Source: Escherichia phage Phagiculus. From it: DNA of 46,458 nt. The position numbers and the translations under genes were made by a program. A model generated the notes under the pieces. It was not told where the DNA came from, searched no databases, and worked only from the letters and a program-made list of their open reading frames with translations. Location: the sequence record OR896821.1. One strand, 5' to 3'. Below are positions 4,526 to 39,600 of the stretch, one piece after another (the stretch's first letter is position 1; the number at the start of each line of letters is the position of its first letter).

Positions 4526-4552
4526 ACAAAAAAGACCCCTAAGGGTCTTTGC
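4526..4552 (-). terminator. intrinsic terminator after major tail protein gene
   Basis: minus strand AGACCC-TTAG-GGGTCT followed by TTTTTT. Confidence 0.6.
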
Positions 4553-7193: not shown

Positions 7194-7255
7194 TTCAATC
7201 TCCTTTGTTATCTGTTAGTGGTGATTATAACTCATCGTTTTGGTTTCGTACAGAC

Positions 7256-7278
7256 GTAAAAAAGCCCTCCTAAGAGGG
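7256..7278 (-). terminator. intrinsic terminator after major capsid gene
   Basis: minus strand GCCCTC-TTAG-GAGGGC followed by TTTTTT; shares 22-nt element with 15635..15656. Confidence 0.6.
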
Positions 7279-7285
7279 CGATTTA

Positions 7286-8311: not shown

Positions 8312-9853
8312 TTATGGCAGCTTGAATGTCTCAATCCTAATTGCGATGTTAAAACTAGTATCAGCTGGGCGCTGAAGGTGAAAAACATCAATCATTATAA
8401 TGTTTTTATCTCCCCAATCTCTAGCTGAGAATTGAATTCTTTTATATCCCCCACCAGTATAACCCGCAGGATCACCTACAACATACCTGCTAGTTCCTGC
8501 AATTGTGTGGTTTGACTGATATCTCTTAACTACGTCAGCGGATGGAAAGTTTACAACCTCAACATCAAAATACCTTCCTGCAATTGAGTTGCCTACAAAA
8601 GAGTACTCAATGTTATTCCCAACCCTTCTTACTGAAAAAGAGATGCCAGGGTTGTTTGGTATAGCTATAGCTGAGTAGCTTGTCGATACGGTAAGTTGAG
8701 TTGTATAAACTGGATTGTTTGTATTATTTTGACCTGCTGGACCCTGTGGGCCGGTTGCGCCAGTTTCGCCTTTTTCTCCTTTGTCGCCCTTTTCGCCCCT
8801 CTCTCCCTGTGGTCCTTGTGGCCCCACCGCTCCAGCAACGCCTCTAATGCCTTGCGGCCCTTGAATACCCTGAGGTCCAGTATCACCTTTTGGCCCTTGA
8901 GGACCGGCTGGTCCAGTAATACCCTGCAATCCTTGATCACCTTTTGGCCCCTGTTCACCTGGTAAACCTTGAATACCTTGCTGGCCCTGAACCCCTCTTG
9001 GACCCTGCTGTCCTGTTTCTCCTTTTTCACCTTGAGGGCCGATATCACCAGGGTCGCCTTTTTCACCCTTATCACCCTTCGTCCCCTGAGCGGCAAGAAC
9101 AACCCACAGAGGTGATACTCCAGGTTCCTCATCTTCTGCAATGTTGCTAACTGCGAAGTAGGTTGAGCCACCGTAAACTACGGTATCATCTTTTGCATAA
9201 CCAGTATCAGGAACCCATTGCCCACGGAATGTTAAACCAGCAGGCCCGACTTCGCCAGGATCACCTTTCTCACCAGTATCACCTTTTAATCCTTGCGGAC
9301 CTTGTGGGCCGATATCACCCCTATCTCCCTTGTCGCCTTTCAAGCCTGCTGGGCCTTGAATTCCCTGTGGACCTTGAATACCTTGAGGGCCAATTGGTCC
9401 TTGTGGACCTACCGCACCACGCTCACCTTTTTCCCCATCAGCGCCATCGTCACCCTTTGGACCCTGCGGACCCTCTGGTCCAACTTCCCCTCGTGGACCT
9501 TGAGGACCTTGCGGACCAGCCATTCCATCCCTGCCAGATGTTCCCTGAAACCCTTTAGTTAACGCAACTGCAAACTGATTTGACTCGGATGAAGGTTCGC
9601 CAAAAACCTCCCAACCTTCGTGAGTGATTTCGTTTACTCTATCAATTAGCTTTTGGCGACTGGTTGCACTCAGAACCATGAAGTCGGTAATATCTGCGTT
9701 AGTTCCCTTAGCTACAACCATGCCAATAGTGTTAGAGCCAGTGCCTGTTAATACTCTATCAAATGGCTGCCAACCTTCTGCAATTGCCTCTAGCACCTTG
9801 CGGCTAAGTGATGCCGTGTTACCAGCAAGGATTTGCCTAAATTCTAAAGCCAT
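8312..9853 (-). CDS. collagen-like repeat protein with embedded CBM5/12 (ChtBD3)-like segment
   Basis: two long Gly-X-Y runs (GPQGPQGPRGEVGPEGPQGPKGDDG... and GDKGEKGDPGDIGPQGEKG...) separated by WVPDTGYAKDDTVVYGGSTYFAV...PLW; non-collagen N- and C-terminal domains. Confidence 0.8.
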   Translation of the reverse strand: MALEFRQILAGNTASLSRKVLEAIAEGWQPFDRVLTGTGSNTIGMVVAKGTNADITDFMVLSATSRQKLIDRVNEITHEGWEVFGEPSSESNQFAVALTKGFQGTSGRDGMAGPQGPQGPRGEVGPEGPQGPKGDDGADGEKGERGAVGPQGPIGPQGIQGPQGIQGPAGLKGDKGDRGDIGPQGPQGLKGDTGEKGDPGEVGPAGLTFRGQWVPDTGYAKDDTVVYGGSTYFAVSNIAEDEEPGVSPLWVVLAAQGTKGDKGEKGDPGDIGPQGEKGETGQQGPRGVQGQQGIQGLPGEQGPKGDQGLQGITGPAGPQGPKGDTGPQGIQGPQGIRGVAGAVGPQGPQGERGEKGDKGEKGETGATGPQGPAGQNNTNNPVYTTQLTVSTSYSAIAIPNNPGISFSVRRVGNNIEYSFVGNSIAGRYFDVEVVNFPSADVVKRYQSNHTIAGTSRYVVGDPAGYTGGGYKRIQFSARDWGDKNIIMIDVFHLQRPADTSFNIAIRIETFKLP

Positions 9854-15595: not shown

Positions 15596-15643
15596 GCGAT
15601 ATTCCTCCTTTGTTGAAGGCCATTGTACCACAGCTACAGACGT

Positions 15644-15665
15644 AAAAAAGCCCTCCGAAGAGGGC
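15644..15665 (-). terminator. intrinsic terminator upstream of terS
   Basis: minus strand GCCCTC-TTCG-GAGGGC followed by TTTTTT. Confidence 0.6.
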
Positions 15666-15688
15666 GAAAGGTACAACAACGAGAGAGA

Positions 15689-15889: not shown

Positions 15890-15965
15890 TGGCGTTCCGC
15901 GCTGGACTCGAACCAGCAACTGAGACTTAGGAGGTCTCTGCGTTATCCCGTTACGCCAGCAGAAC
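15890..15965 (-). tRNA. tRNA-Arg (anticodon CCU)
   Basis: hand-folded cloverleaf: 7-bp acceptor GTTCTGC/GCGGAAC, D-stem GCGT/ACGC, anticodon stem GAGAC/GTCTC with loop CTCCTAA, T-arm GCTGG-TTCGAGT-CCAGC, discriminator G, encoded CCA. Confidence 0.8.
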
Positions 15966-18078: not shown

Positions 18079-18576
18079 TTAATTCATCTCCTTAATCATA
18101 TCCTGGTACATCCGGATAGCTTTGATAGCGCCAGATAACTCATCACCTTCCATATCAACGATATTAGGGCTTAACTTCAGGATTCGCTCCTTAAAACTCT
18201 CAATTGCCTTTATCTCAATGTGCTCGTTAGTCTTGTTACGAACCCCTTCTTTAATTGCTCCTTTAATGAGGGTGATCTTCGCACAGTACTCAACCTCATC
18301 TTTGAACTCCATGTCACCAAAAGAAAGTCTAGCTCTGTAATCGGCGTCCTTCATTGACTCCATTCTGCTGGCAGTGTTTGCAACATAGGATGCTTTTAGC
18401 TTGGTAATCTCATAACGACCGCCTCGCTTGAAGTCAACATCAGAAGAGTCGAAGTCAACCTCTCCACCAAGCAGCTGATAAATCTTCTTGACCGGTACAT
18501 GGAACTCTTTGGCCTCAGACTTGAGTGCCTCATCAACCATACCTCGCACTACATCACCCAAAGTTGTATTGCTCAT
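18079..18576 (-). CDS. hypothetical protein (165 aa)
   Basis: first gene of the early minus-strand block. Confidence 0.55.
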   Translation of the reverse strand: MSNTTLGDVVRGMVDEALKSEAKEFHVPVKKIYQLLGGEVDFDSSDVDFKRGGRYEITKLKASYVANTASRMESMKDADYRARLSFGDMEFKDEVEYCAKITLIKGAIKEGVRNKTNEHIEIKAIESFKERILKLSPNIVDMEGDELSGAIKAIRMYQDMIKEMN

Positions 18577-19014
18577 GTCTTTCCCCTCTCGTTAAGTTAC
18601 ATCCATAATATAGCGGACTTATATACGTGTCAATAGCTGTGAAAAAAAATAGACATTGCATGTTTTTACGCTTTAGCCCATGAGAGCCCCGCCACTGCTG
18701 ACTGTGAATCGCTGTGCACAATGTAGATAGAATCCCGCCGGACCCCCTATATATATCTATATCCTTTCGGAGATATGAATATACATCATTGAGAGGAAAC
18801 ATATGGGTATCACCATTATGGCTATCTACACTATTTACATAACAATATTATAATAATAATAATAACTCTAAGTTGTTTATATATATAGATATTTTATTGT
18901 AACTAGCTGTAAATTTACGCGGATTGCGTAGATAAATTCCCGCGCGCGCATTTTTGTCTATAGCTTTAACTTCGTTTACGCGTATCGCATATAGATGAAG
19001 AAATTTAGCCGCAA

Positions 19015-19170
19015 ATGTGAGATGTGCAATCACCATCATCATTTCATTCAATCAATCCATCAATCATTGCAGAAATGGCAACAATCAACAAACCTGTTGC
19101 AATCGATGAAATATTGCTGTATTTGCAATAGTTATGTGAATCATTGCAATTACTGCAACAATCCATAAAT
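19015..19170. repeat. cluster of about 7 palindromic TTGCAA(T) sites (iteron-like)
   Basis: gtgcaatc, cattgcag, gttgcaatcg, tttgcaatag, cattgcaatt, ctgcaacaatc within about 150 bp. Confidence 0.5.
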
Positions 19171-19178
19171 CTAACGAA

Positions 19179-19222
19179 TAGCACTTTTTGCTAAAGACGA
19201 AACCACCATGATTGGGTATAGT
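19179..19222 (+). promoter_or_regulatory. conserved promoter module
   Basis: tagcactttttgcta then aagacg then TATAGT at 19217..19222; leader CCATCGAAACGAA. Confidence 0.6.
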
Positions 19223-19260
19223 TACTCCATCGAAACGAACCAAACACAGGAATCTGAATC

Positions 19261-19443
19261 ATGGCTAAGAAAATCAATAAAAACTCACCAGTAACTAAAG
19301 AAAACATGGTTGCTCTTCTGGTCCAGGAAGGCTACAACCTGGCCAATACTGAAGTCCTGGTAGATACATGGTTTAAAAAGATGGTTAGCGCGCACCCTGA
19401 AGACAACATTAAAGAACTGGCTTACTACTTTAAACACCTGTAA
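19261..19443 (+). CDS. hypothetical protein (60 aa)
   Basis: first gene after promoter module. Confidence 0.55.
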   Translation: MAKKINKNSPVTKENMVALLVQEGYNLANTEVLVDTWFKKMVSAHPEDNIKELAYYFKHL

Positions 19444-20842: not shown

Positions 20843-22426
20843 ATGTTTGATTTTAACGATGACAAATTGACTGTTGAGCAAGTAATGGCTGTTGCCGCTC
20901 AGGATGGATTGCCTCCCTTACGCGTTGCTATTAATGCTAATGGATATCGCCAGTCTCAATCATTCTGGAAATCACCTGTAGAGATTGACTCTGCAAATGA
21001 TAAGTACCCTACCATCTCTCTTGGTAACGATTTTGATGTGGTTGGTAAGTTAGCTAATAACATTGCTCGCTCTGTTCAGTTCCCCGAGGCTTCAGCTTAC
21101 ATGCACTTCCTGGGTTGCATCTCTGCGGCAATGCTAGGCCGCTTTACGGTTGAGTATCATGGAACTCAGCAACCTACGGCTTTGTACGTGGTAACTAGCC
21201 AGCCCCCATCCACTGGTAAGTCAGCAATCAACTCATTAGCGATTGCGCCAATGGTTGCAGAGGTTGAGCGAATCAACGACCAACGTAAACGTGAACGCAA
21301 GAAGATTATGGCTAAGCTGTCTGCGTTGGCTAAAGAGATGAAACAGGAGAAGTCACCATCTGAAATGGCATCTCTCTTTGAAGAGAAAGAAGACCTGGAG
21401 GAGAAGCTTGAGAAGATGTGCGATGTTGTATTCCCTGTTTCCGACACAACACCCGAAGGTCTTGCTCGCATCAACAATCGCCAGGGTAACTTTGCGGTAA
21501 TCTCGGATGAGGCGACATCAGTAAACTCATTGCTTGGCATGACTTATGGCGATAGTAGCAAGAAGACAAACAGCGAACTAGTTCTTAAGGCGTGGGACTC
21601 TGGTAACGTATCAATCGCTCGTGCCAACGCAGAAAACAATATGAGTTTTGTTGCTTTAGGTTGCATCTCTGTAATCGCGCAGGATGAGACAATTAACGCA
21701 ATAATGGATGCTGGTGCTCGTGGTATCGGTGTATCAGAGCGTTTCTTATTAGTTCGTGAAAAATCATTCCTGGGCGAACGTGTATTTGTTAACGATAACG
21801 GTGAATCAACTTACGAGCCCATCGATAATGGACTGAAAGCTGATTACTTCCGCCTGGTTCATGAAATTATGTCAGAGGTTGATGTTAAGCTGACAATCAG
21901 TAACGGTGCAGCGCTTTACCTTAACCGCGCTCGTCAGGAAATGGAACCTCACCTCGGTGATGGAGGCAAATACTCTCACTCCATGCTACGTGGCGCTCTG
22001 GGCAAGTTTGATAAGCAGGTAATTCGTATTGCGGCAGTTCTTCATACAATTCGCAATTGGGTTAATCTTAATGGTGGTAGTCCGCAGAAAGAAAGAACAA
22101 TTGACCTTGATACTATGCAGGAAGCCATTGCGATTTTCCATGAACTTAGTAAGACTTATCTTTCATCTGCAAATGCGGCTGGTCATGCTGGTGATAATGC
22201 CGAGATGAATAAGCTGATTGATATTTTGATTAAGCAAGGCAAGGCATCCAAAGGAGTGGTGGGCATTCGTGCGCTTTACGAAGCTGCTCGCAAGGTAAAA
22301 CCATTTAACTCCCAGAATGGTACCATGTTAAAGATTAAAGAACACTTAATGCCAATGCTTGATGAAAAAAACTACACTTGCACAATAGGAGAGAAAATTT
22401 ATGTCAACCCTCGCTTGCTTAGCTGA
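20843..22426 (+). CDS. P-loop NTPase, DUF3987-like replication-associated protein
   Basis: Walker A-like QPPSTGKS and Walker B-like VISDEA. Confidence 0.55.
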   Translation: MFDFNDDKLTVEQVMAVAAQDGLPPLRVAINANGYRQSQSFWKSPVEIDSANDKYPTISLGNDFDVVGKLANNIARSVQFPEASAYMHFLGCISAAMLGRFTVEYHGTQQPTALYVVTSQPPSTGKSAINSLAIAPMVAEVERINDQRKRERKKIMAKLSALAKEMKQEKSPSEMASLFEEKEDLEEKLEKMCDVVFPVSDTTPEGLARINNRQGNFAVISDEATSVNSLLGMTYGDSSKKTNSELVLKAWDSGNVSIARANAENNMSFVALGCISVIAQDETINAIMDAGARGIGVSERFLLVREKSFLGERVFVNDNGESTYEPIDNGLKADYFRLVHEIMSEVDVKLTISNGAALYLNRARQEMEPHLGDGGKYSHSMLRGALGKFDKQVIRIAAVLHTIRNWVNLNGGSPQKERTIDLDTMQEAIAIFHELSKTYLSSANAAGHAGDNAEMNKLIDILIKQGKASKGVVGIRALYEAARKVKPFNSQNGTMLKIKEHLMPMLDEKNYTCTIGEKIYVNPRLLS

Positions 22427-27345: not shown

Positions 27346-27584
27346 TAATGCAACTCCTCGCACTCAAAGCTAAAAATAATCATGTCGTTATAATCAGTAA
27401 GGTAATACGAAGTGCCATCAAGTGACTTTTCAGCCTCGAAGACTTTTGCATCTCCCTTACTTTCAGTGAGGTAATACGAAGTGCCATCAAATGATTTTTC
27501 AGCCTCGAATACTCTTGTACCTCCCTTACTTTCAATCCACCTTGATAGTGCCATTGTTGGGTTTGTGATTACTATTTTCATCAT
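27345..27584 (-). CDS. hypothetical protein with internal 23-aa tandem repeat
   Basis: VFEAEKSFDGTSYYLTE / VFEAEKSLDGTSYYLTD. Confidence 0.5.
   Translation of the reverse strand: MMKIVITNPTMALSRWIESKGGTRVFEAEKSFDGTSYYLTESKGDAKVFEAEKSLDGTSYYLTDYNDMIIFSFECEELH
27397..27536. repeat. 69-bp tandem duplication (2 copies, near-identical) inside CDS
   Basis: ggtaatacgaagtgccatcaa...cctcgaa...cccttactttca repeated with period 69. Confidence 0.8.
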
Positions 27585-28451: not shown

Positions 28452-30382
28452 TTAGAACTCCTTATTTGCCATGTTATCGCCACCTTTGGCGGTCTTACGG
28501 TGAGTTACTCGCTTTGGAGCCTGAATGTATTGTGCGAACTCCATAATCTTACGAGCATTGCGATATGCAGCCATGTATCTTTTAGCATTCATATCTACTA
28601 CATGCCCCTTAATTCCATTATTCAACCATAAAGTCTTGCATACTCGATGGTCCGACTCTACAAAGAAAACCTCCTGAGCCTTAAATGTCCCACCCATGCC
28701 GTCATCAAGGACGTAGTTGTAGATGATTCCTGATTGGTTCTTGGTGAGGCCAACTTTGAAATCAACAACATCAAACCAGTCATTTTTTCTATAATGTTTA
28801 CCGCTTAACTTCAGATTTGGGTCAAGCAAAGTGCAATCACAACCCCTGCAAATCTTGGCAGCTACGTCATTCTGAACTCCACAACCTTTAACGGTAATCT
28901 TTCCTGTGCGTGGGTCCTTCTGGTCTTCACAGGTGCGACTAACCCAGAAATATTCACAGCGATTGTTATTCTCATCAACATGCATACAGCGACGAGCATA
29001 AAAGCTATTCTCAGTTCCGCAAACTGGGCACTGCTTGGTTTCCTTGCCATTACTCTTGCGTAGCTGATATTGGGCCTGTTCAAGTATTGGGTTGAAGTAA
29101 AGCGCAGCCATTGAATCCATAGTTCCAGCGAAATCCAAAACAAGGTGGTCATTCTTGACCATTCCTTTATCTTCATGAAACTTTTTGAGTTTACGCATCC
29201 CTCGACCAAGAAGCTGAACAAGAAGTGTAAGGCTACCAATCTTGCGAAGAATAACGCTTGTATCCCATGTTGGTACGTTAACCCCAGTAGTCAGAGCCTG
29301 AACCTGGAAGCAGTATTTTATCTCTCCATTAAAGCACTTATCTAATAACTCTTTACGCTGCTTTTCACCAGTCTTGCCAGTAATAACGCAGAAAGTTTCC
29401 CCTTCTGGCAAGTAGCTAGCCGCTTCATGGCAATGTCTTTCACCAGCACAAGTAACCAGAACTCCGTTACGGTCTTTAGCAGCGAGCCAGACCTTCTTCA
29501 TTATCTCAGCTGTCATTGTTCCGGACTGCTGAATCTTCTTCTCCATTGCCTCAAGCTGAGCCTTTGTATAGTCCTGCACTCCATCATCTGCGGAAGTGTC
29601 GAACTCTGACAGGTCATAACCCATACCATCAGTGGCGCCAAAGTTTGTCGGTACTACGGAGCCGAACTCAACAAGATAATCTGTATCTATATTTGTAACA
29701 GTCTCGCGCCAGAACCCCATCTCCTTTTTGTTCTCAACGACAATTGGAGTGGTTCCACGGAAAGGTGAGCCAGTCAGGCCAAAGATACGCAGGTTCTTGC
29801 CATACTTGGCTCGGCAGCGTTCCATTAAAGTCAGGATGATAACTGTGTACTGGCTGCGACCTTTATCTGATGCCTGTTGCGCAGTTTCGTTGTTATCAAT
29901 TGCCTCTGCGATATCCTGGTCATCAACCATGTGACACTCATCAATAGCAACTACCGCAGGGCAAAAATCACCAAGTGACTTCTCAAGACCTCCAACTACC
30001 GTGCCCTCGGAGCCAACTACAATTGGGAAATAAGAAGACTTAATGCCAAGTCCTGAGCAATAGATAGAGTTAGGTACACCATAGTCAGAAATCTCAGAAG
30101 CATTCTGGCTAACTAACTCAGCCTGACGCGCGAGAACAAGCATTGGCAAGCCAAGTTCGGAGCAGCGCTTAGCGACCATGCCAAAAACAAGCGTCTTACC
30201 TGCGGAAACCGAAGCCATTGCGATGAATGGGTGCTCATAACGACCAATACGTTTTGCAATCTCATTGTACATTACACACTGATAGCTATAAGGAACCATG
30301 CCGTTTGATGAAGTGAATTTAGTTTGAATCTCTTTGATTTTATCTTCGCCAAGTTCTGCAATCTGTTTCTTAATATTAATCA
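28452..30382 (-). CDS. SF2 DEAD/DEAH-type helicase with C-terminal Cys-rich zinc-ribbon region
   Basis: Walker A SVSAGKTLV, Walker B AIDECHMV; CPVCG...C...C cluster; ORF-track start at 30431 is TTG and overlaps the promoter. Confidence 0.8.
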
Positions 30383-30394
30383 TGACCTTGCCAT

Positions 30395-30422
30395 TTGTTT
30401 CGTTTATGTATGGTGCTATAAT
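30395..30422 (+). promoter_or_regulatory. sigma70-like extended -10 promoter for HTH gene
   Basis: TTGTTT - 16 nt - TGcTATAAT on plus strand. Confidence 0.4.
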
Positions 30423-30459
30423 ACACGACAAGCGAAAACACTTTTAGCAAAAAATGCTA
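30418..30459 (-). promoter_or_regulatory. conserved promoter module (divergent with 30395..30422)
   Basis: tagcaaaaaatgcta at 30445..30459; minus-strand TATTAT at 30423..30418. Confidence 0.5.
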
Positions 30460-30469
30460 TCGAGGTTAA

Positions 30470-31016
30470 TATGTCAGAAAAAATTGCATTATCTACTGGT
30501 GAGATTGATAAGAGAACCACCAACGGAAACAACGGAATCTCTCGCAGTGAAGACAAGAAGCCACGCAAGCGCCCCAGTGGTTACTACGTATTAAAGGATG
30601 AGGTTAAGGCTGGTCTTAAGGCTAGGCTTGAGATTATCTTAGGATGCTTTGAATCAAAGGCAGATATGGCCAGGAAGTTGAAAGTGAGCCCTCAAGTGGT
30701 CGATCAGTGGTTTAAGCGTGGTTTTATATCAGTTGATGGCGCTTATAAAATGCATAAGTACATGAAGCGAACAGGGTTGGGTTATCGCGCCTCTTTTTGC
30801 AGACCAGACATCAAGTTCGATTCCAACGGCAAGCCACTACATAAGCGATGCCAGGACCGTAGAATGATGCGGGTAGTTACCGATAAAGAGTTGAAGATGA
30901 AGCCAATGGAAAAGAACTGGCGACAAAAGAAGAAGGAGAAAGCACTGAAGAAAATTCAGGAGAAGGAAGCTAGAGAGCATTGGATAAACGCCTTTTCAGA
31001 TATTGAGCACGAATAG
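30470..31016 (+). CDS. Cro/YdaS-like HTH DNA-binding protein with basic N-terminus and K/E-rich C-terminus
   Basis: KADMARKLKVSPQVVDQWFKRGFIS ... CRPDIKF pattern typical of the YdaS/Cro family. Confidence 0.5.
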
Positions 31017-31076
31017 TCAAAAAATACCACCTAAACGGTGGTATTTTTGTATGCAATGTAGATGAGGAGAGTAGAC

Positions 31077-31988
31077 ATGAACTACGATAAGAATGAAGTT
31101 ATTTCCAGAATGAAGGGGCTTTGGCCTGACGCTCTCGTTAAGCTGTGTGGGGTAAATCCAGCGGTATTCAAGAGCAGAAAGCATCAGCCATGCATCTACT
31201 GTGGAGGAACTGACAGGTTTCGATGGACAGACAAGGTTAATGAGCAGGGTGACGGAGGCGCTATCTGCAACCAGTGCGGCGCTGGTGATGGCATTAAGTG
31301 GATTGAGAAGATGAGGGGTGAGTCTTTTAGCGAGGCCGTAAATACTGTTGGTGAGTGGCTGAATCTCGTCCCTGTTGAAGTCGTTAACAAGGCAAACAAA
31401 TCCGCAAGCAGGGTTCAGCGCTATAAGAATGGCGCTCAATCATCTCCAGAATTAATAGAGAAGGTAATGTCTCGCACCAAGTCGGTAGAAATCACACAGC
31501 TAACGAGATATGAAGCCATTATTGCTGAGCGTGAATACAAAATAGGCATCAATGAGTCTGGAGAGGAAATTATAGCCGAGCAATGCTTTATGGTTTACGA
31601 GGATGGATTTGCTGACGAGCCTTGCAACGTAAAATTTATCAATGAAGAAGGTAATGAGTCATACCTTGCAAAAGATTATACACGCGGTTCGATAGTTCCG
31701 GTCAGTGAATGTAATGAAGGCTCTATCTATCTAACAGTTGGCTGGGTTAATGCAATGCATGTCGCGGAATGTACAGGAAGGACGACATATGACTGCCTAA
31801 CGCATTACAACCTAGAGATGGTTGCGTACGAACTCAGGAATAAAGACTGCCGCATAGCCTGCCTCAGAGATGATAAGGAGTCGCTTTATGTTGCTGACGA
31901 CAGGTGCATTAAAGTTGTTGTTCCAAATGGAAACTCATTCAAGAATGGATTGGAGAGAAAACTATATTCACCACAAGATTTAATCTAA
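31077..31988 (+). CDS. DNA primase (zinc-ribbon N-terminus)
   Basis: CIYCGGTDRFRWTD...CNQCGAGDG zinc-binding motif typical of phage primases. Confidence 0.6.
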   Translation: MNYDKNEVISRMKGLWPDALVKLCGVNPAVFKSRKHQPCIYCGGTDRFRWTDKVNEQGDGGAICNQCGAGDGIKWIEKMRGESFSEAVNTVGEWLNLVPVEVVNKANKSASRVQRYKNGAQSSPELIEKVMSRTKSVEITQLTRYEAIIAEREYKIGINESGEEIIAEQCFMVYEDGFADEPCNVKFINEEGNESYLAKDYTRGSIVPVSECNEGSIYLTVGWVNAMHVAECTGRTTYDCLTHYNLEMVAYELRNKDCRIACLRDDKESLYVADDRCIKVVVPNGNSFKNGLERKLYSPQDLI

Positions 31989-37585: not shown

Positions 37586-37661
37586 CTCTATATCTCTCTC
37601 TGCTTGTGTGAGTTAACTATGCCATCCGTTGCTAACTTTATCCAATCGGTTTTGCCTATTG

Positions 37662-37877
37662 TTAACTAACCTTTGGAGGATTTGGTGCTAGCATGTAATG
37701 AGTCACGTCATCAATCTCTTCACAACCAAGAGTAGTGAAGCACCTGTACTTTTTAAAAGTTTTAGGATCAACTAAGTAATTCCAATAAGCAGGCATCACG
37801 CCATAACTTCTTGAATTAACAATAATAAATACTTGGTCATCACTTGGCTTTTCGTCTTTAACATCAACCCATTTCAT
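37662..37877 (-). CDS. hypothetical protein (71 aa)
   Basis: ORF. Confidence 0.45.
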   Translation of the reverse strand: MKWVDVKDEKPSDDQVFIIVNSRSYGVMPAYWNYLVDPKTFKKYRCFTTLGCEEIDDVTHYMLAPNPPKVS

Positions 37878-37951
37878 AATTAATACCCATATATATTATT
37901 TAAATTAATTATATAATAATTTAATTTTTATTATCCAATCGGTTTTGCCTA

Positions 37952-38602
37952 TTAGTTCAGTTTCAAAATCTCGCTATTTTTATCAACCAGCTTATTAATT
38001 AACTCATCCTTATCAGCCAGCTTATGGCAAAGAGTCTCACACTGAGCCTGATATGAGTAAACCAACTCTTGCGAGTCAAAGTATCTACCTGATTCAAACT
38101 TCAATTCGTACATCTTTTTGTCAACCTCCTCGCCATCTGAAGCCTTGTCGATGTACTTATAGATAATCTTCTCAAGTTTATAAACTTCATCCTCAGCGCG
38201 GTTTCTAGCAGCAATCTCTTTCGTAGTCTGCATCTTCTCCTTTAGAACCAGGTCGTAAGAAACCATCTTAGCTACATGCTCTTTCAGTAACTTGTTTTCC
38301 CGCTCAAGCTGCTTAATCTTTTTAATCATGTTCATTCGCGCTTTCGCGCTGTACTTCGCAACAAGGCATAACGCGTGGTCCTTGTCGAGTAAAGCTACCT
38401 TGTGAGTCTGTCCTTTGTTGTTATATTCACGGTCCCGAAATTCGGGAGCGTGATTCTCTCCATAAAGATCAATGTACATTTCTTTTGCTGCATTAAAGAC
38501 ATGCTCATGCCTTTGACCAACAACTCCAGCAATATCAAAGGTGGTCATTGTAATTTCTTCATCAGTATTCATTAAGTTCATTGTTTGCTCTCTTATTGTC
38601 AC
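37952..38602 (-). CDS. Rha-like phage regulatory protein with coiled-coil C-terminus
   Basis: TTFDIAGVVGQRHEHVF ... KVALLDKDHALCLVAKYSAKAR pattern typical of the Rha family. Confidence 0.45.
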   Translation of the reverse strand: MTIREQTMNLMNTDEEITMTTFDIAGVVGQRHEHVFNAAKEMYIDLYGENHAPEFRDREYNNKGQTHKVALLDKDHALCLVAKYSAKARMNMIKKIKQLERENKLLKEHVAKMVSYDLVLKEKMQTTKEIAARNRAEDEVYKLEKIIYKYIDKASDGEEVDKKMYELKFESGRYFDSQELVYSYQAQCETLCHKLADKDELINKLVDKNSEILKLN

Positions 38603-38651
38603 TGCTCAAATCTGAGCAGACTGGCAAGCACTATTGCCGCCGCTGAGTTAA

Positions 38652-38693
38652 ATATACCCGTTCAGAAGCATCCTGTTTTGACTAATCGTGCTA
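38652..38693 (-). promoter_or_regulatory. degenerate conserved promoter module
   Basis: tgactaatcgtgcta (half-site degenerate); aaacag; GTATAT; leader contains hairpin CTGCTCA-AATC-TGAGCAG. Confidence 0.35.
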
Positions 38694-38869
38694 TTTTGTA
38701 TACCAGCGTAAAACTATCCAATTTACAGATTCCCCCACCTGCAACACCGCCATCACTTGATGTAACCGATGTATATAGAGTAAACAAGAAAAAATCACCC
38801 ACATCTATATCTATAGATAAATGCAGGTATGTATATGCTCGTAAAAATGAAGATTATACGCCCATCGCC

Positions 38870-39272
38870 TCATGAGCCCGCACCAACACTGGATGTAACT
38901 CATGTAAACGCTGTAACAGTAGTTTTTGCGCCCCTATCTATATATCCATATGCATTTGGCAACACCAGAAACAGAACTTAGTCATTTCAAAAAAACATAT
39001 CAACACAACCATAGAAGGTAGTTACACTATATACAAACAAATATAGTAATAATAATAATTACTCTAAACCCTTATTATATAAGGATTCTTTAGTGTAACT
39101 AATGCGTATCTGCGCGTAAAAAGCGTATACAATTTCCCGCGGGTCAGGATTGCATACATCGATTTACATAGGTTACGCGTATATCAAATAGCACGATTTG
39201 CTAAAGACTGACTGAAGCACCTTTGGTATAGTTACTCCATCGAAACGAAAAACACTTAATAAGGATTCAAAA
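38870..39272. repeat. AT-rich control region B, paralogous to 18670..19260
   Basis: same ordered sequence blocks as region A, ending in conserved promoter module. Confidence 0.6.
39189..39232 (+). promoter_or_regulatory. conserved promoter module
   Basis: tagcacgatttgcta, aagact, TATAGT at 39227..39232; leader TACTCCATCGAAACGAA identical to the one at 19222..19250. Confidence 0.6.
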
Positions 39273-39378: not shown

Positions 39379-39600
39379 ATGAAAAAGTTAATCGTTATCG
39401 CGGCAATGATGTTAGGCGGATGCTCTACGATGCCAGAGCGCACTTGTACGGCGATTTATGAGTCTGGTGGTATGAGTTACTCGGTTTATGTTTTTGGCAC
39501 GCAGAAGCGCGGCGAGGAGATTTTACTGAGGGCTGGGTATCCATTCTCGTTTCATTACGTGTCTGAGCGGAATTTTAGAGACCACGATTGTGGCGGTTGA
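39379..39600 (+). CDS. small lipoprotein (Cor/Llp-like superinfection exclusion candidate)
   Basis: signal peptide with lipobox LGGC (MKKLIVIAAMMLGGCS); 73 aa; convergent with the tail tip gene cluster. Confidence 0.5.
   Translation: MKKLIVIAAMMLGGCSTMPERTCTAIYESGGMSYSVYVFGTQKRGEEILLRAGYPFSFHYVSERNFRDHDCGG

What the first reader, a model, noticed from the sequence alone, without database searches (positions are those of the whole stretch)
18670..19260. Two paralogous AT-rich control regions (A at 18670..19260, B at 38870..39272)
Two intergenic regions about 20 kb apart share the same ordered blocks (CATGAGxCCC..CCCCTATATATATC, a (TAA)4-5 microsatellite followed by ACTCTAA, GTAACTA, a GC palindrome TTCCCGCGCGCG / TTCCCGCGGG, TACGCGTAT) and both end in a conserved promoter module driving a plus-strand gene. 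Both sit where transcription switches from the minus to the plus strand. They are too diverged to be terminal redundancy and contain no convincing CDS, so they may be duplicated regulatory hubs, replication origins or small-RNA loci.
Basis: seen in the sequence. Interest (0 to 1): 0.65.

Follow-up and report, generated by a model that had tools for sequence, protein, structure and literature searches.

The report
Duplicated origin-like element in T1-like phage
Two non-coding regions 20 kb apart in this T1-like phage genome carry the same roughly 155-bp scaffold of short phased repeats around an easily melted AT-rich stretch, which looks like a replication origin present in two copies and gives a testable candidate for the origin that has not yet been found in this phage family.

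Summary
Regions A (18577-19260) and B (38603-39272) are paralogous beyond their promoter. They share 66% identity over 264 nt (E 4e-25), and alignment with the promoter excluded scores z=30 against shuffles.

The window is a Drexlerviridae (T1-like, Rogunavirinae) genome. The same pair of regions occurs in every relative examined.

What is conserved is a skeleton, not the sequence:
- two TACA units 9 nt apart;
- a 58-nt AT-rich tract with (TAA)4-5, among the three least stable duplex stretches of the window;
- four YGTA units of opposite orientation, phased about 11/10/9 nt;
- 54 nt further on, the palindrome TACGCGTA.

These positions agree within 1 nt between A and B. There is no conserved ORF, no shared RNA structure and no Rfam match.

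The "promoter module" is the known genome-wide 21-nt repeat of T1-like phages. A alone carries a conserved TTGCAA-rich block where several public records have their ends, so it is a candidate pac site.

Best explanation (confidence 0.5): iteron-plus-unwinding-element origins of the self-loading-helicase type. The phage encodes an MCM-like DUF3987 helicase with a predicted C-terminal winged helix, downstream of A. Distant homologues of this helicase lie next to analogous iteron/AT-rich regions.

The main rival is a shared operator array for a phage regulator. Nothing has been tested experimentally.

The parts
18605..18633 (-). Leftward sigma-70-type promoter of region A (TTGACA-17-TATTAT). It drives the DUF7174 gene at 18079-18576.
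   Evidence: Matches 11 of 12 consensus positions. Gene family.
18680..18760 (+). Distal left block of A (CATGAG...CCCCCTATATATATC). It includes TGTG/TGTG/TGTA units about 10 nt apart at 18703-18725. Paralogous to B 38871-38947.
   Evidence: Left parts alone score z=5.9.
18827..18839 (+). A: two TACA units (the inverse of TGTA), starting at 18827 and 18836, 9 nt apart.
   Evidence: A pair 9 nt apart is present in 15 of the 19 cores compared; the C119/Opt79/EB49-type A cores show a single unit.
18840..18897 (+). A: 58-nt AT-rich tract containing (TAA)5 (18851-18865), CTCTAA and TATATATATA. Candidate DNA-unwinding element.
   Evidence: Second least stable 40- and 60-mer of the window, z 4.5-5.0. 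The 58-nt length is conserved.
18898..18930 (+). A: phased YGTA array. TGTA at 18898, TGTA at 18908, a degenerate unit near 18918, CGTA at 18927.
18977..18984 (.). A: palindrome TACGCGTA, 54 nt after the last array unit. It is also the mosaic junction with the closest relative.
   Evidence: TACGCGTA occurs only at A and B in the window. Spacing. Junction.
19030..19165 (.). A-specific TTGCAA/TGCA-rich block, absent from B. Candidate pac / terminase recognition region.
   Evidence: 80-88% identity across Drexlerviridae genera. Six TGCA against 0.7 expected. Position 1 of the T1 record, and the ends of the SU57, CEB_EC3a, UDF157lw and OzMSK records, map to window 18990-19120 (inference).
19177..19222 (+). 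A: 21-nt repeat promoter module (19177-19198) plus the -10 hexamer TATAGT (19217-19222). It drives the plus-strand operon starting at 19261, which includes the DUF3987 helicase.
   Evidence: The repeat is described in PMC11447400.
38675..38697 (-). B: leftward copy of the 21-nt repeat module, upstream of the Rha-like gene at 37952-38602.
   Evidence: family D3. Gene family.
38871..38947 (+). Distal left block of B. It has three TGTAA units 9 nt apart (38894, 38903, 38912), then CCCCTATCTATATATCC.
39023..39035 (+). B: two TACA units at 39023 and 39032, 9 nt apart. GTTACAC here is the inverted partner of GTGTAAC at 39093.
39036..39093 (+). B: 58-nt AT-rich tract containing (TAA)4 (39047-39058), CTCTAA and TTATTATATAA. 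Candidate DNA-unwinding element.
   Evidence: Third least stable stretch of the window, z 4.1-4.3. Length.
39094..39127 (+). B: intact phased array. TGTA at 39094, CGTA at 39105, 39115 and 39124 (spacing 11, 10, 9).
   Evidence: The only four-unit phased array in the window; none in 30 dinucleotide shuffles.
39155..39181 (.). B: inverted TACR units at 39155, 39165 and 39174, ending in the palindrome TACGCGTA (39174-39181). The palindrome's CGTA lies 54 nt after the fourth direct unit.
39187..39232 (+). B: 21-nt repeat promoter module (39187-39208) plus the -10 hexamer TATAGT (39227-39232). It drives a 34-aa ORF (39273) and the Cor-like lipoprotein (39379-39600).
   Evidence: Cor annotation in relatives.
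20843..22426 (+). Candidate initiator-helicase: a DUF3987 protein with an MCM-like AAA+ core and a C-terminal winged helix, encoded 1.6 kb downstream of A.

Best explanation
Each region contains one copy of an origin-type DNA element. Two inverted and about four direct copies of a short iteron (core YGTA, fuller form GYGTAW) flank a 58-bp AT-rich, low-stability tract. An auxiliary palindrome made of two overlapping iteron cores (TACG|CGTA) lies five helical turns away.

Proposed mechanism:
1. A phage-encoded winged-helix protein binds the phased units on one face of the DNA, on both sides of the AT tract. The leading candidate is the MCM-like DUF3987 helicase encoded in the operon that starts at A.
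2. Negative supercoiling from the flanking divergent promoters helps the (TAA)n/TATATA tract to melt.
3. The helicase loads itself, and the phage primase and SSB with host polymerase III start DNA synthesis.

B is the well-preserved copy. A is a looser copy fused to a TTGCAA-rich block that probably serves packaging (pac). The genome therefore has either two origins or one two-part origin.

Shown here: the paralogy, the conserved skeleton, its uniqueness in the genome, the low duplex stability, the lack of coding or RNA signal, the predicted fold of the helicase, and analogous elements beside distant homologues of that helicase.

Inferred: which protein binds, the melting step, and any replication activity at all.
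For: 1. Skeleton conserved while sequence drifts.
- In the window the unit starts are 18827, 18836, 18898, 18908, (18918), 18927, 18981 in A and 39023, 39032, 39094, 39105, 39115, 39124, 39178 in B. The spans are 154 and 155 nt, at only about 63-66% identity.
- Across 19 cores from 11 phages the left pair is 9 nt apart in 15 (the C119/Opt79/EB49-type A cores show a single unit). The right array is 11(12)/10/9. The gap between the arrays is exactly 58 nt in 13 cores although (TAA)n varies from 9 to 24 nt, and 62-66 nt in the other 6. The distance from the array to the palindrome is 43-44 or 53-54 nt, a difference of one helical turn.

2. A cores from related phages are only 50-60% identical to each other, as far apart as A is from B, yet they keep these motifs. 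Conservation in A forms islands: AT tract 0.77, array 0.66, palindrome 0.84, spacers about 0.4.

3. The element is unique in the genome. TACGCGTA and (TAA)4 occur only in A and B. The intact phased array occurs only in B, and only in A and B of Sf12, with none in shuffles. The nhmmer profile gives two hits only.

4. The AT tracts of A and B are two of the three least stable duplex stretches in 46 kb.

5. The pair is old. Within-genome A-B similarity is found in Sf12, C119, Opt-79, phiEB49, AHP42 and CJ19 and in T1 (z=8.7). T1 and T1-like regions show the same pattern of TACR arrays, AT tract and YGTA units.

6. Candidate initiator.
- The protein at 20843-22426 is DUF3987.
- SaPI Rep helicases use a C-terminal winged helix to bind 5-6-nt iterons placed on each side of an AT-rich region in opposite orientations (PMC9371898).

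7. Independent lineages. DUF3987 helicases 36-41% identical to this one lie next to intergenic regions with lineage-specific iterons around AT-rich tracts.
- L031 and L032: GGGGT mostly left and ACCCC mostly right of the AT tract, holding 12 of the 15-16 copies in each locus.
- L033: eight GGGTA followed by four TACCC. The unit TGGGTAA is one base from GYGTAA.
- L028/L029: (TAG)4, TATATA and a TATATATCAAGGACTT motif like that of Sf12 A.
- L030: (TAA)9 followed by TATATTTATATAG about 600 nt upstream of the helicase.

8. The origin of T1-like phages is reported as not found (PMC11447400; PMC7718038).
Against: - There are no experimental data of any kind. Binding, melting and initiation are all inferred.
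- B is not next to the helicase gene. In SaPIs the ori directly follows rep.
- In B the palindrome abuts the promoter repeat (centred near -68 by my reading of the sequence). That position is equally typical of a transcription-factor site.
- In A the third array unit is degenerate, and the inverted TACR units that precede the palindrome in B are missing. A could be a decaying copy.
- The iteron core is only 4-5 nt, so individual sites are weak evidence. Only their phasing and conservation carry weight.
- GC skew follows the transcription direction and says nothing about replication.
- In L033 and in Drexlerviridae the region is also near the small terminase gene, so linkage to packaging is not excluded.
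- The T1 genome paper and the older T1 replication literature could not be read.
Confidence: 0.5

Rival explanations
1. Shared operator or enhancer array. A phage DNA-binding regulator binds the phased YGTA/TACR units in both divergent promoter regions. Candidates are the HTH regulator at 30324-31016 and the Rha-like protein at 37952-38602. Binding would switch the two early control regions on or off together, with no role in replication. The AT tract would act as bent or UP-like DNA.
For: - Both elements lie between divergent promoters.
- In B the palindrome lies 5 nt upstream of the 21-nt promoter repeat.
- Phased direct repeats at 10-11 nt are typical of winged-helix transcription factors (general knowledge).
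- A Rha-like regulator gene is adjacent to B.
Against: - The arrays are absent from the other roughly 9 copies of the promoter module.
- In A the palindrome is about 190 nt from the rightward promoter.
- T1 has no Rha gene beside its B region yet keeps the same pattern of units.
- A fixed-length, minimally stable 58-nt AT tract between oppositely oriented arrays, and analogous elements beside distant DUF3987 helicase genes, are better explained by an origin.
- The two roles are not mutually exclusive.
Confidence: 0.25
2. Packaging or recombination site. The shared core is recognised by the small terminase, making B a secondary pac-like site, or it is a recombination hot spot linked to genome ends.
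For: - A overlaps the region where T1 and several other records have their ends.
- PMC7718038 places pac in the corresponding untranslated region.
- There is a mosaic junction exactly at the palindrome in the closest relative.
- Known pac sites such as that of P1 also have short repeats flanking a central region (own knowledge).
Against: - The strongly conserved, end-associated part of A is the TTGCAA block, which B lacks.
- B carries the best-preserved core, yet no record end or terminal repeat maps to it.
- T1 is described as packaging from one pac site (PMC11447400).
Confidence: 0.08
3. Duplicated sequence with no current function: remnants of an old duplication of an intergenic region, kept only by chance or by low complexity.
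For: - The regions are AT-rich and partly low in complexity.
- A cores are very divergent between phages.
Against: - The pair is kept across several subfamilies.
- Unit spacing is conserved to the nucleotide while spacers have drifted to about 40% column identity.
- The B core is as conserved (86-91%) as the adjacent Cor coding sequence.
Confidence: 0.05
4. A small RNA or small protein gene duplicated in both regions.
For: - Consensus scans find -35/-10-like hexamers around the (TAA)n tract.
- The B-only alignment folds better than column shuffles (-30 against -11 kcal/mol).
- A 67-aa minus-strand ORF lies at 18848-19051.
Against: - The joint A+B alignment has essentially no consensus structure.
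- The B hairpin CCTTATTATATAAGG is not kept in CJ19 or in the A cores.
- No terminator follows the cores.
- Rfam gives nothing meaningful.
- 1-nt indels occur among B orthologues, and open frames are broken in 5 of 8.
- No ORF hits Pfam or PHROGs.
Confidence: 0.03

Closest known systems
Replication origins of SaPI/PICI islands and SCCmec, served by self-loading Rep/Cch helicases
   Same: - Short 5-6-nt iterons lie in several copies on both sides of a central AT-rich region, in opposite orientations.
- The initiator is a hexameric AAA+ helicase (SF3 or MCM-like) with a C-terminal winged helix (PMC9371898).
- The phage here has an MCM-like helicase with a predicted winged helix.
   Different: - Here there are two copies per genome, 20 kb apart, and neither directly follows the helicase gene.
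- The arrays are strictly phased (11/10/9), with a fixed 58-nt AT tract containing a trinucleotide microsatellite and a distal palindrome.
- The helicase family is DUF3987, and the primase is a separate gene.
- Binding is untested.
Satellite phage P4 origin: ori plus crr bound by the alpha primase-helicase (own knowledge; primary papers could not be read)
   Same: - Two separated cis elements in one genome carry the same short repeats.
- The replication protein set is related: a primase with a zinc ribbon of the primase-helicase type.
   Different: - P4 alpha is a single fused primase, helicase and origin-binding protein of another Pfam family (PF03288, per PMC8628076).
- In P4 the two elements are about 4.5 kb apart (own knowledge). 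Here they are 20 kb apart.
- Whether both copies are needed in cis here is unknown.
T4 and T7 origins (a promoter plus a downstream unwinding element; several origins per genome; T4 reviewed in PMC3016281, listed)
   Same: - More than one origin per lytic phage genome.
- Association with promoters and an AT-rich unwinding element.
   Different: - T4 and T7 origins are transcribed and primed by an R-loop or transcript, and they lack iteron arrays.
- Here the AT tract lies between divergent promoters, and no flanking promoter reads through it.
The 21-nt direct repeat of TLS, T1, Rtp and Rogue1 (aaATAGCACnnnTTGnTAAAA; PMC11447400)
   Same: [quoted passage not shown]
   Different: It is a genome-wide element with 7-11 copies in the window. 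It does not define the A/B paralogy, and its function is stated as unknown in that paper.
pac sites of headful-packaging phages (T1, P22, P1, SPP1)
   Same: The A-specific TTGCAA block coincides with the ends of several public records and with position 1 of the T1 record.
   Different: - This applies only to the extra block in A, not to the element shared with B.
- No cleavage data exist for this phage.

Membership tests
Iteron/AT-rich origin of a self-loading winged-helix helicase (SaPI-type ori) | Multiple copies of a 5-6-nt repeat clustered in a non-coding region | tested here: met
   - B has 15 YGTA/TACR units in 330 nt (z=4.9). A has 11 (z=3.1).
- A phased four-unit array is found only at these loci, with none in shuffles.
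Iteron/AT-rich origin of a self-loading winged-helix helicase (SaPI-type ori) | A central AT-rich region with repeats on each side pointing in opposite directions | tested here: met
   - Two TACA units, then a 58-nt AT tract, then four YGTA units, in both A and B and in most of the 19 cores compared.
- The tract is among the three least stable stretches of the window.
Iteron/AT-rich origin of a self-loading winged-helix helicase (SaPI-type ori) | Element located immediately beside the initiator gene | tested here: inconclusive
   - A heads the operon that contains the DUF3987 gene but lies 1.6 kb upstream of it.
- B is 17 kb away.
- Distant homologues do have such regions directly adjacent.
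Iteron/AT-rich origin of a self-loading winged-helix helicase (SaPI-type ori) | Initiator combines an AAA+ hexameric helicase core with a C-terminal winged helix | tested here: met
   - This rests on a predicted structure only, with pLDDT 89.
Iteron/AT-rich origin of a self-loading winged-helix helicase (SaPI-type ori) | Specific binding of the initiator to the repeats, origin melting, and replication that depends on the element | not testable with these tools
   Needs EMSA or footprinting, KMnO4 probing, and plasmid-amplification or marker-frequency assays.
P4-type two-part origin (ori + crr) | Two separated cis elements sharing the initiator's repeats | tested here: met
   There are exactly two profile hits per genome, and both share the same skeleton.
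P4-type two-part origin (ori + crr) | Fused alpha-type primase, helicase and origin-binding protein | tested here: not met
   - The primase (31062-31988, Zn_Ribbon_Prim) and the DUF3987 helicase (20843-22426) are separate genes.
- P4 alpha belongs to PF03288.
P4-type two-part origin (ori + crr) | Both elements required in cis | not testable with these tools
   Needs deletion genetics.
Structured small RNA | Conserved secondary structure with covariation, its own terminator, or membership of a known family | tested here: not met
   - RNAalifold on 17 cores gives -2.2 / -1.0 kcal/mol.
- No terminator inside the cores.
- No Rfam match.
Protein-coding gene | Reading frame conserved among orthologues, or a hit to a protein family | tested here: not met
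   - Frames are broken in 5 of 8 B orthologues and there are 1-nt indels.
- Nine ORFs have no Pfam or PHROG hit.
Terminal redundancy / long direct repeat | Near-identical copies | tested here: not met
   66% identity over 264 nt.
21-nt direct repeat of T1-like phages (promoter module only) | Consensus aaATAGCACnnnTTGnTAAAA, oriented with transcription, about 76 nt upstream of a start codon | tested here: met
   - Copies at 19177-19198 and 39187-39208 have 0 mismatches to AATAGCACnnnTTGCTAAAGAC.
- There are 7 copies in the window.
- They lie 84-86 nt from the start codons.
- Consensus from PMC11447400.
pac site (TTGCAA block of A only) | Site of the first terminase cut, where virion DNA ends begin | not testable with these tools
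   - Indirect evidence only.
- Five public records end within the equivalent of window 18990-19120.
- The SU57 end was set from a step in read coverage (PMC7718038).

The most novel reading that the evidence does not exclude
Drexlerviridae genomes carry a two-site origin system. The conserved B element and the looser, pac-linked A element would both be bound by the phage's MCM-like DUF3987 helicase through its winged helix. The two sites would either cooperate over 20 kb, as ori and crr do in P4, or fire at different stages, for example one coupled to packaging at A. The fixed-length tract containing a (TAA)n/(TAG)n trinucleotide repeat would be a defined single-strand loading platform shared by DUF3987-helicase phages.
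Probability: 0.2. Interest if true: 0.75.

Novelty: new variant of a known kind. Interest (0 to 1): 0.6.

Why it matters
T1 is one of the classic coliphages, and T1-like phages are notorious laboratory and fermentation contaminants. Even so, recent genome papers state that no replication origin has been found in them (PMC11447400, PMC7718038).

This analysis gives exact, testable coordinates for a candidate origin in two copies, a candidate initiator (an MCM-like DUF3987 helicase), and a simple sequence pattern that can be searched for in other phages encoding this helicase family: oppositely oriented short repeats around a fixed-length AT tract with a trinucleotide repeat.

If confirmed, it would extend the self-loading helicase origin known from staphylococcal islands to a large family of virulent enterobacterial phages. 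It would also assign a function to DUF3987.

Tried and rejected
- Small RNA: rejected.
- Small protein: rejected.
- tRNA remnant: rejected. ARAGORN finds only tRNA-Arg at 15890-15965.
- GC-skew origin mapping: uninformative. The skew simply follows the coding strand.
- Host-type origin signals: no DnaA box (TTATCCACA) anywhere in the window, and no GATC in A or B.
- Exact-pattern scan of viral contigs with the shared leader: only 3 loci, of little use.
- Protein-anchored scans of viral contigs: 8 loci with Cor, none with the DUF7174 protein. Public phage records were used instead.
- PDB sequence search with the helicase: nothing. A structure prediction was needed.
- Literature: the T1 genome paper, the Rtp paper and the P4 alpha paper are not held. 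Searches for a T1-like transcriptome or a mapped origin found nothing relevant.
- The GC palindrome and the CCTTAT..ATAAGG hairpin noted in the window are not conserved in relatives and were dropped as functional features.
- The TTGCTA hexamer as the -35 of the module: rejected by my own count on the sequence. It lies 23 nt from TATAGT. The hexamer at 17 nt is AAGAC(T/G), so the repeat sits at about -38 to -59.
Full report
**Identity of the window.** The window is a near-complete genome of a T1-like siphovirus (Drexlerviridae, Rogunavirinae). It is about 80-83% identical over roughly 40-48% of a 25-kb query to Jk06, AHS24/AHP24, C119 and Rogue1.

Region A (18577-19260) lies between a minus-strand DUF7174 gene (18079-18576) and a plus-strand operon starting at 19261. 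Region B (38603-39272) lies between a minus-strand Rha-like gene (37952-38602) and a plus-strand pair: a 34-aa ORF and a Cor-like lipoprotein.

In the T1 reference record the equivalent of A spans the record junction (48675-48836 plus 1-538), where the annotated 2.8-kb terminal repeat starts. The equivalent of B is 29851-30377, between cor and the exonuclease gene.

All listed blocks are present. blastn gives 66% identity over 264 nt (A 18744-18994 against B 38931-39191, E 4e-25), plus 80% over 80 nt for the promoter and leader. With the promoter module removed, the local alignment score is 65 against 13.0 +/- 1.7 for dinucleotide shuffles (z=30). The left parts alone give z=5.9.

**The promoter module is a known, genome-wide element.** AATAGCACnnnTTGCTAAAGAC occurs seven times in the window at up to 3 mismatches, against 0.01 expected, and weaker copies exist. 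It is the 21-nt direct repeat described for TLS, T1, Rtp and Rogue1. That paper lists its function as an open question (PMC11447400).

**The pair is old and family-wide.** Within-genome A-B similarity is found in Sf12, C119, Opt-79, phiEB49, AHP42 and CJ19: 63-72% over 94-394 nt. It is also found in T1 (z=8.7).

The two copies evolve very differently:
- B cores are 87-97% identical among Rogunavirinae.
- A cores from the same phages are only 50-60% identical to each other, no closer than A is to B.
- The B core is about as conserved (86-91%) as the adjacent Cor coding sequence (84-86%), while the left flank of B is mosaic.
- The closest relative found is a metagenomic contig whose helicase is 96% identical. 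Its A region is about 90% identical to the window's A only to the right of TTACGCGT (18977). To the left just the motifs survive.

**What is conserved is a skeleton.**
- Right of the AT tract are four YGTA units (fuller form GYGTAW) with start-to-start spacing of 11(12), 10 and 9 nt. The third unit is degenerate in the window's A and in some other A cores.
- The palindrome TACG|CGTA follows 43-44 or 53-54 nt later. These two distances differ by one helical turn.
- Left of the tract are TACR units, the inverse of YGTA. GTTACAC on the left faces GTGTAAC on the right. A pair 9 nt apart is present in 15 of 19 cores; the C119/Opt79/EB49-type A cores show a single unit.
- The gap between the last left unit and the first right unit is exactly 58 nt in all eight B cores and in five A types. 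This holds although the (TAA)n run varies from 9 to 24 nt. The gap is 62-66 nt in the other A types.
- In the window the unit starts are 18827, 18836, 18898, 18908, (18918), 18927, 18981 in A. In B they are 39023, 39032, 39094, 39105, 39115, 39124, 39178. The spans are 154 and 155 nt.
- B has extra inverted units at 39155 and 39165, and a distal TGTAA triplet at 38894, 38903 and 38912.
- Column conservation in A forms islands: AT tract 0.77, array 0.66, palindrome 0.84, spacers about 0.4.
- T1 and T1-like regions show the same pattern with other numbers and spacings. One example is GGCGTAATTT GGCGTAATTT TGTATACGAT in T1 A. Another is three TACA units 9 nt apart before the AT tract in T1 B.

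**The element is unique and easily melted.**
- TACGCGTA and (TAA)4 occur only in A and B. There is no DnaA box in the window and no GATC in either region.
- The intact phased array occurs only in B of the window, and only in A and B of Sf12. None appears in 30 dinucleotide shuffles.
- A profile of the 17 cores hits the window twice only.
- The AT tracts of A and B are two of the three least stable duplex stretches in 46 kb, with z 4-5.

**It is not RNA and not protein.**
- RNAalifold on the 17 cores finds essentially no shared structure (-2.2 / -1.0 kcal/mol).
- The B-only alignment does fold better than column shuffles. However, those sequences are about 90% identical, and the hairpins are not kept in CJ19 or in the A cores.
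- Rfam gives nothing meaningful, and there is no terminator inside the cores.
- Open frames are not preserved among orthologues, and no ORF hits Pfam or PHROGs.

**A candidate binding protein.**
- The operon that starts at A encodes a 527-aa DUF3987 protein at 20843-22426 (Pfam E 9e-42).
- SaPI Rep proteins are self-loading helicases whose C-terminal winged helix binds 5-6-nt iterons. Those iterons lie on both sides of an AT-rich region in opposite orientations (PMC9371898). That is the architecture seen here.

**Independent comparative support.** DUF3987 helicases 36-41% identical to this one, from other phage contigs, lie next to large non-coding regions built the same way but with their own repeats:
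- L031 and L032: GGGGT mostly on the left and ACCCC mostly on the right of an AT tract. Each region holds 12 of the 15-16 copies in its locus.
- L033: eight GGGTA followed by four TACCC. The unit TGGGTAA is one base from GYGTAA.
- L028/L029: directly downstream of the helicase, with (TAG)4, CCCTATATATAAC, and a TATATATCAAGGACTT motif close to the TATATATTAAGGACTT of Sf12 A.
- L030: (TAA)9 followed by TATATTTATATAG about 600 nt upstream of the helicase.

So the association of the helicase gene with an iteron/AT-rich region recurs, and the repeat sequence changes with the helicase.

**The extra block in A.** Between the palindrome and the promoter, A has a TTGCAA/TGCA-rich block (19030-19165) that B lacks. 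It is the most conserved part of A across genera (80-88%).

Position 1 of the T1 record falls inside the homologous block. By my mapping of hit coordinates, the record ends of SU57, CEB_EC3a, UDF157lw and OzMSK correspond to window positions of about 19011, 18993, 19035 and 19119. The SU57 end was set from a step in read coverage, and its authors place pac in this untranslated region (PMC7718038). I read this block as the likely pac region. This is an inference.

**Interpretation.** The most economical reading is that A and B each carry an origin-type assembly site of iterons plus an unwinding element. B is the well-kept copy, and A is a looser copy joined to pac.

Whether there are two independent origins or one two-part origin cannot be decided here. 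P4's ori plus crr is the precedent for a two-part origin (own knowledge).

The main rival is a shared operator array for a phage regulator. The two roles could also coexist. Two genome papers state that the origin of T1-like phages has not been found, and I found no description of this paired element in the papers I could search. The T1 genome paper itself could not be read.

**Verdict.**
- Observation: confirmed.
- Best explanation: duplicated iteron/AT-rich origin-like element, confidence 0.5.
- Novelty: a new variant of a known kind.
- Interest: 0.6.

Noticed in passing
window 37878-37951, with repeats at 37640-37661 and 37933-37954: A 74-nt spacer of almost pure A+T, the least stable duplex of the whole window. 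It lies between the Rha-like gene and a 71-aa minus-strand ORF (37662-37877). A 22-nt direct repeat, TATCCAATCGGTTTTGCCTATT, brackets the ORF and the spacer, as if a small cassette had been inserted. It contains no YGTA array.
   Followed up: partly
window 19030-19165: TTGCAA/TGCA-rich block found only in A. It is 80-88% conserved across Drexlerviridae genera. Several public records, including position 1 of T1, end in or next to it. It is a likely pac region.
   Followed up: partly
window 18977 / L027 1360-2066: Sharp mosaic junction at the TACGCGT palindrome. The closest relative is about 90% identical to the right of it and about 50% identical to the left.
   Followed up: partly
L002 (Sf12) 47313-47647 and 1-123: The linear Sf12 record repeats about 257 nt of region A across its two ends, giving a second copy of the array and of ACGTGTAT. 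This could be a short tandem duplication or an assembly or linearisation artefact.
   Followed up: no
window 17113, 19177, 20765, 25044, 25488, 28056, 39187 (plus weaker copies at 4545, 18046, 35946, 38675): Copies of the 21-nt repeat AATAGCACnnnTTGCTAAAGAC. By my count on the sequence, the repeat sits at about -38 to -59 from the likely start site. Its TTGCTA is 23 nt from the -10 hexamer, so it is not a normal -35. This suggests an activator or UP-like role.
   Followed up: partly
window 19212-19239 and 39222-39249: The 28-nt leader TT(G/T)GGTATAGTTACTCCATCGAAACGAA is 96% identical between A and B in this phage. In most relatives it is typical of B only, which hints at gene conversion between the two regions.
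   Followed up: no
window 27394-27531: Two tandem copies of a 69-nt unit, 90% identical (family D9).
   Followed up: no
window 7249-7281 and 15635-15667: A 33-nt repeat, 97% identical, containing a GC hairpin (AAAAAGCCCTCC..GAGGGC) that looks like a duplicated terminator (family D15).
   Followed up: no
window 8312-9853 (minus strand): A 513-aa ORF full of 9-nt periodic repeats consistent with collagen-like Gly-X-Y repeats (families D1, D2, D5, D10).
   Followed up: no
L031 60-640; L032 1205-1700; L033 1085-1845; L028 11076-11609; L030 1-610: Origin-like regions with iterons around AT-rich tracts beside distant DUF3987 helicase genes in unrelated phage contigs. Each has its own repeat (GGGGT, GGGTA or CCCCAG). 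Two have a (TAA)n or (TAG)n microsatellite.
   Followed up: partly
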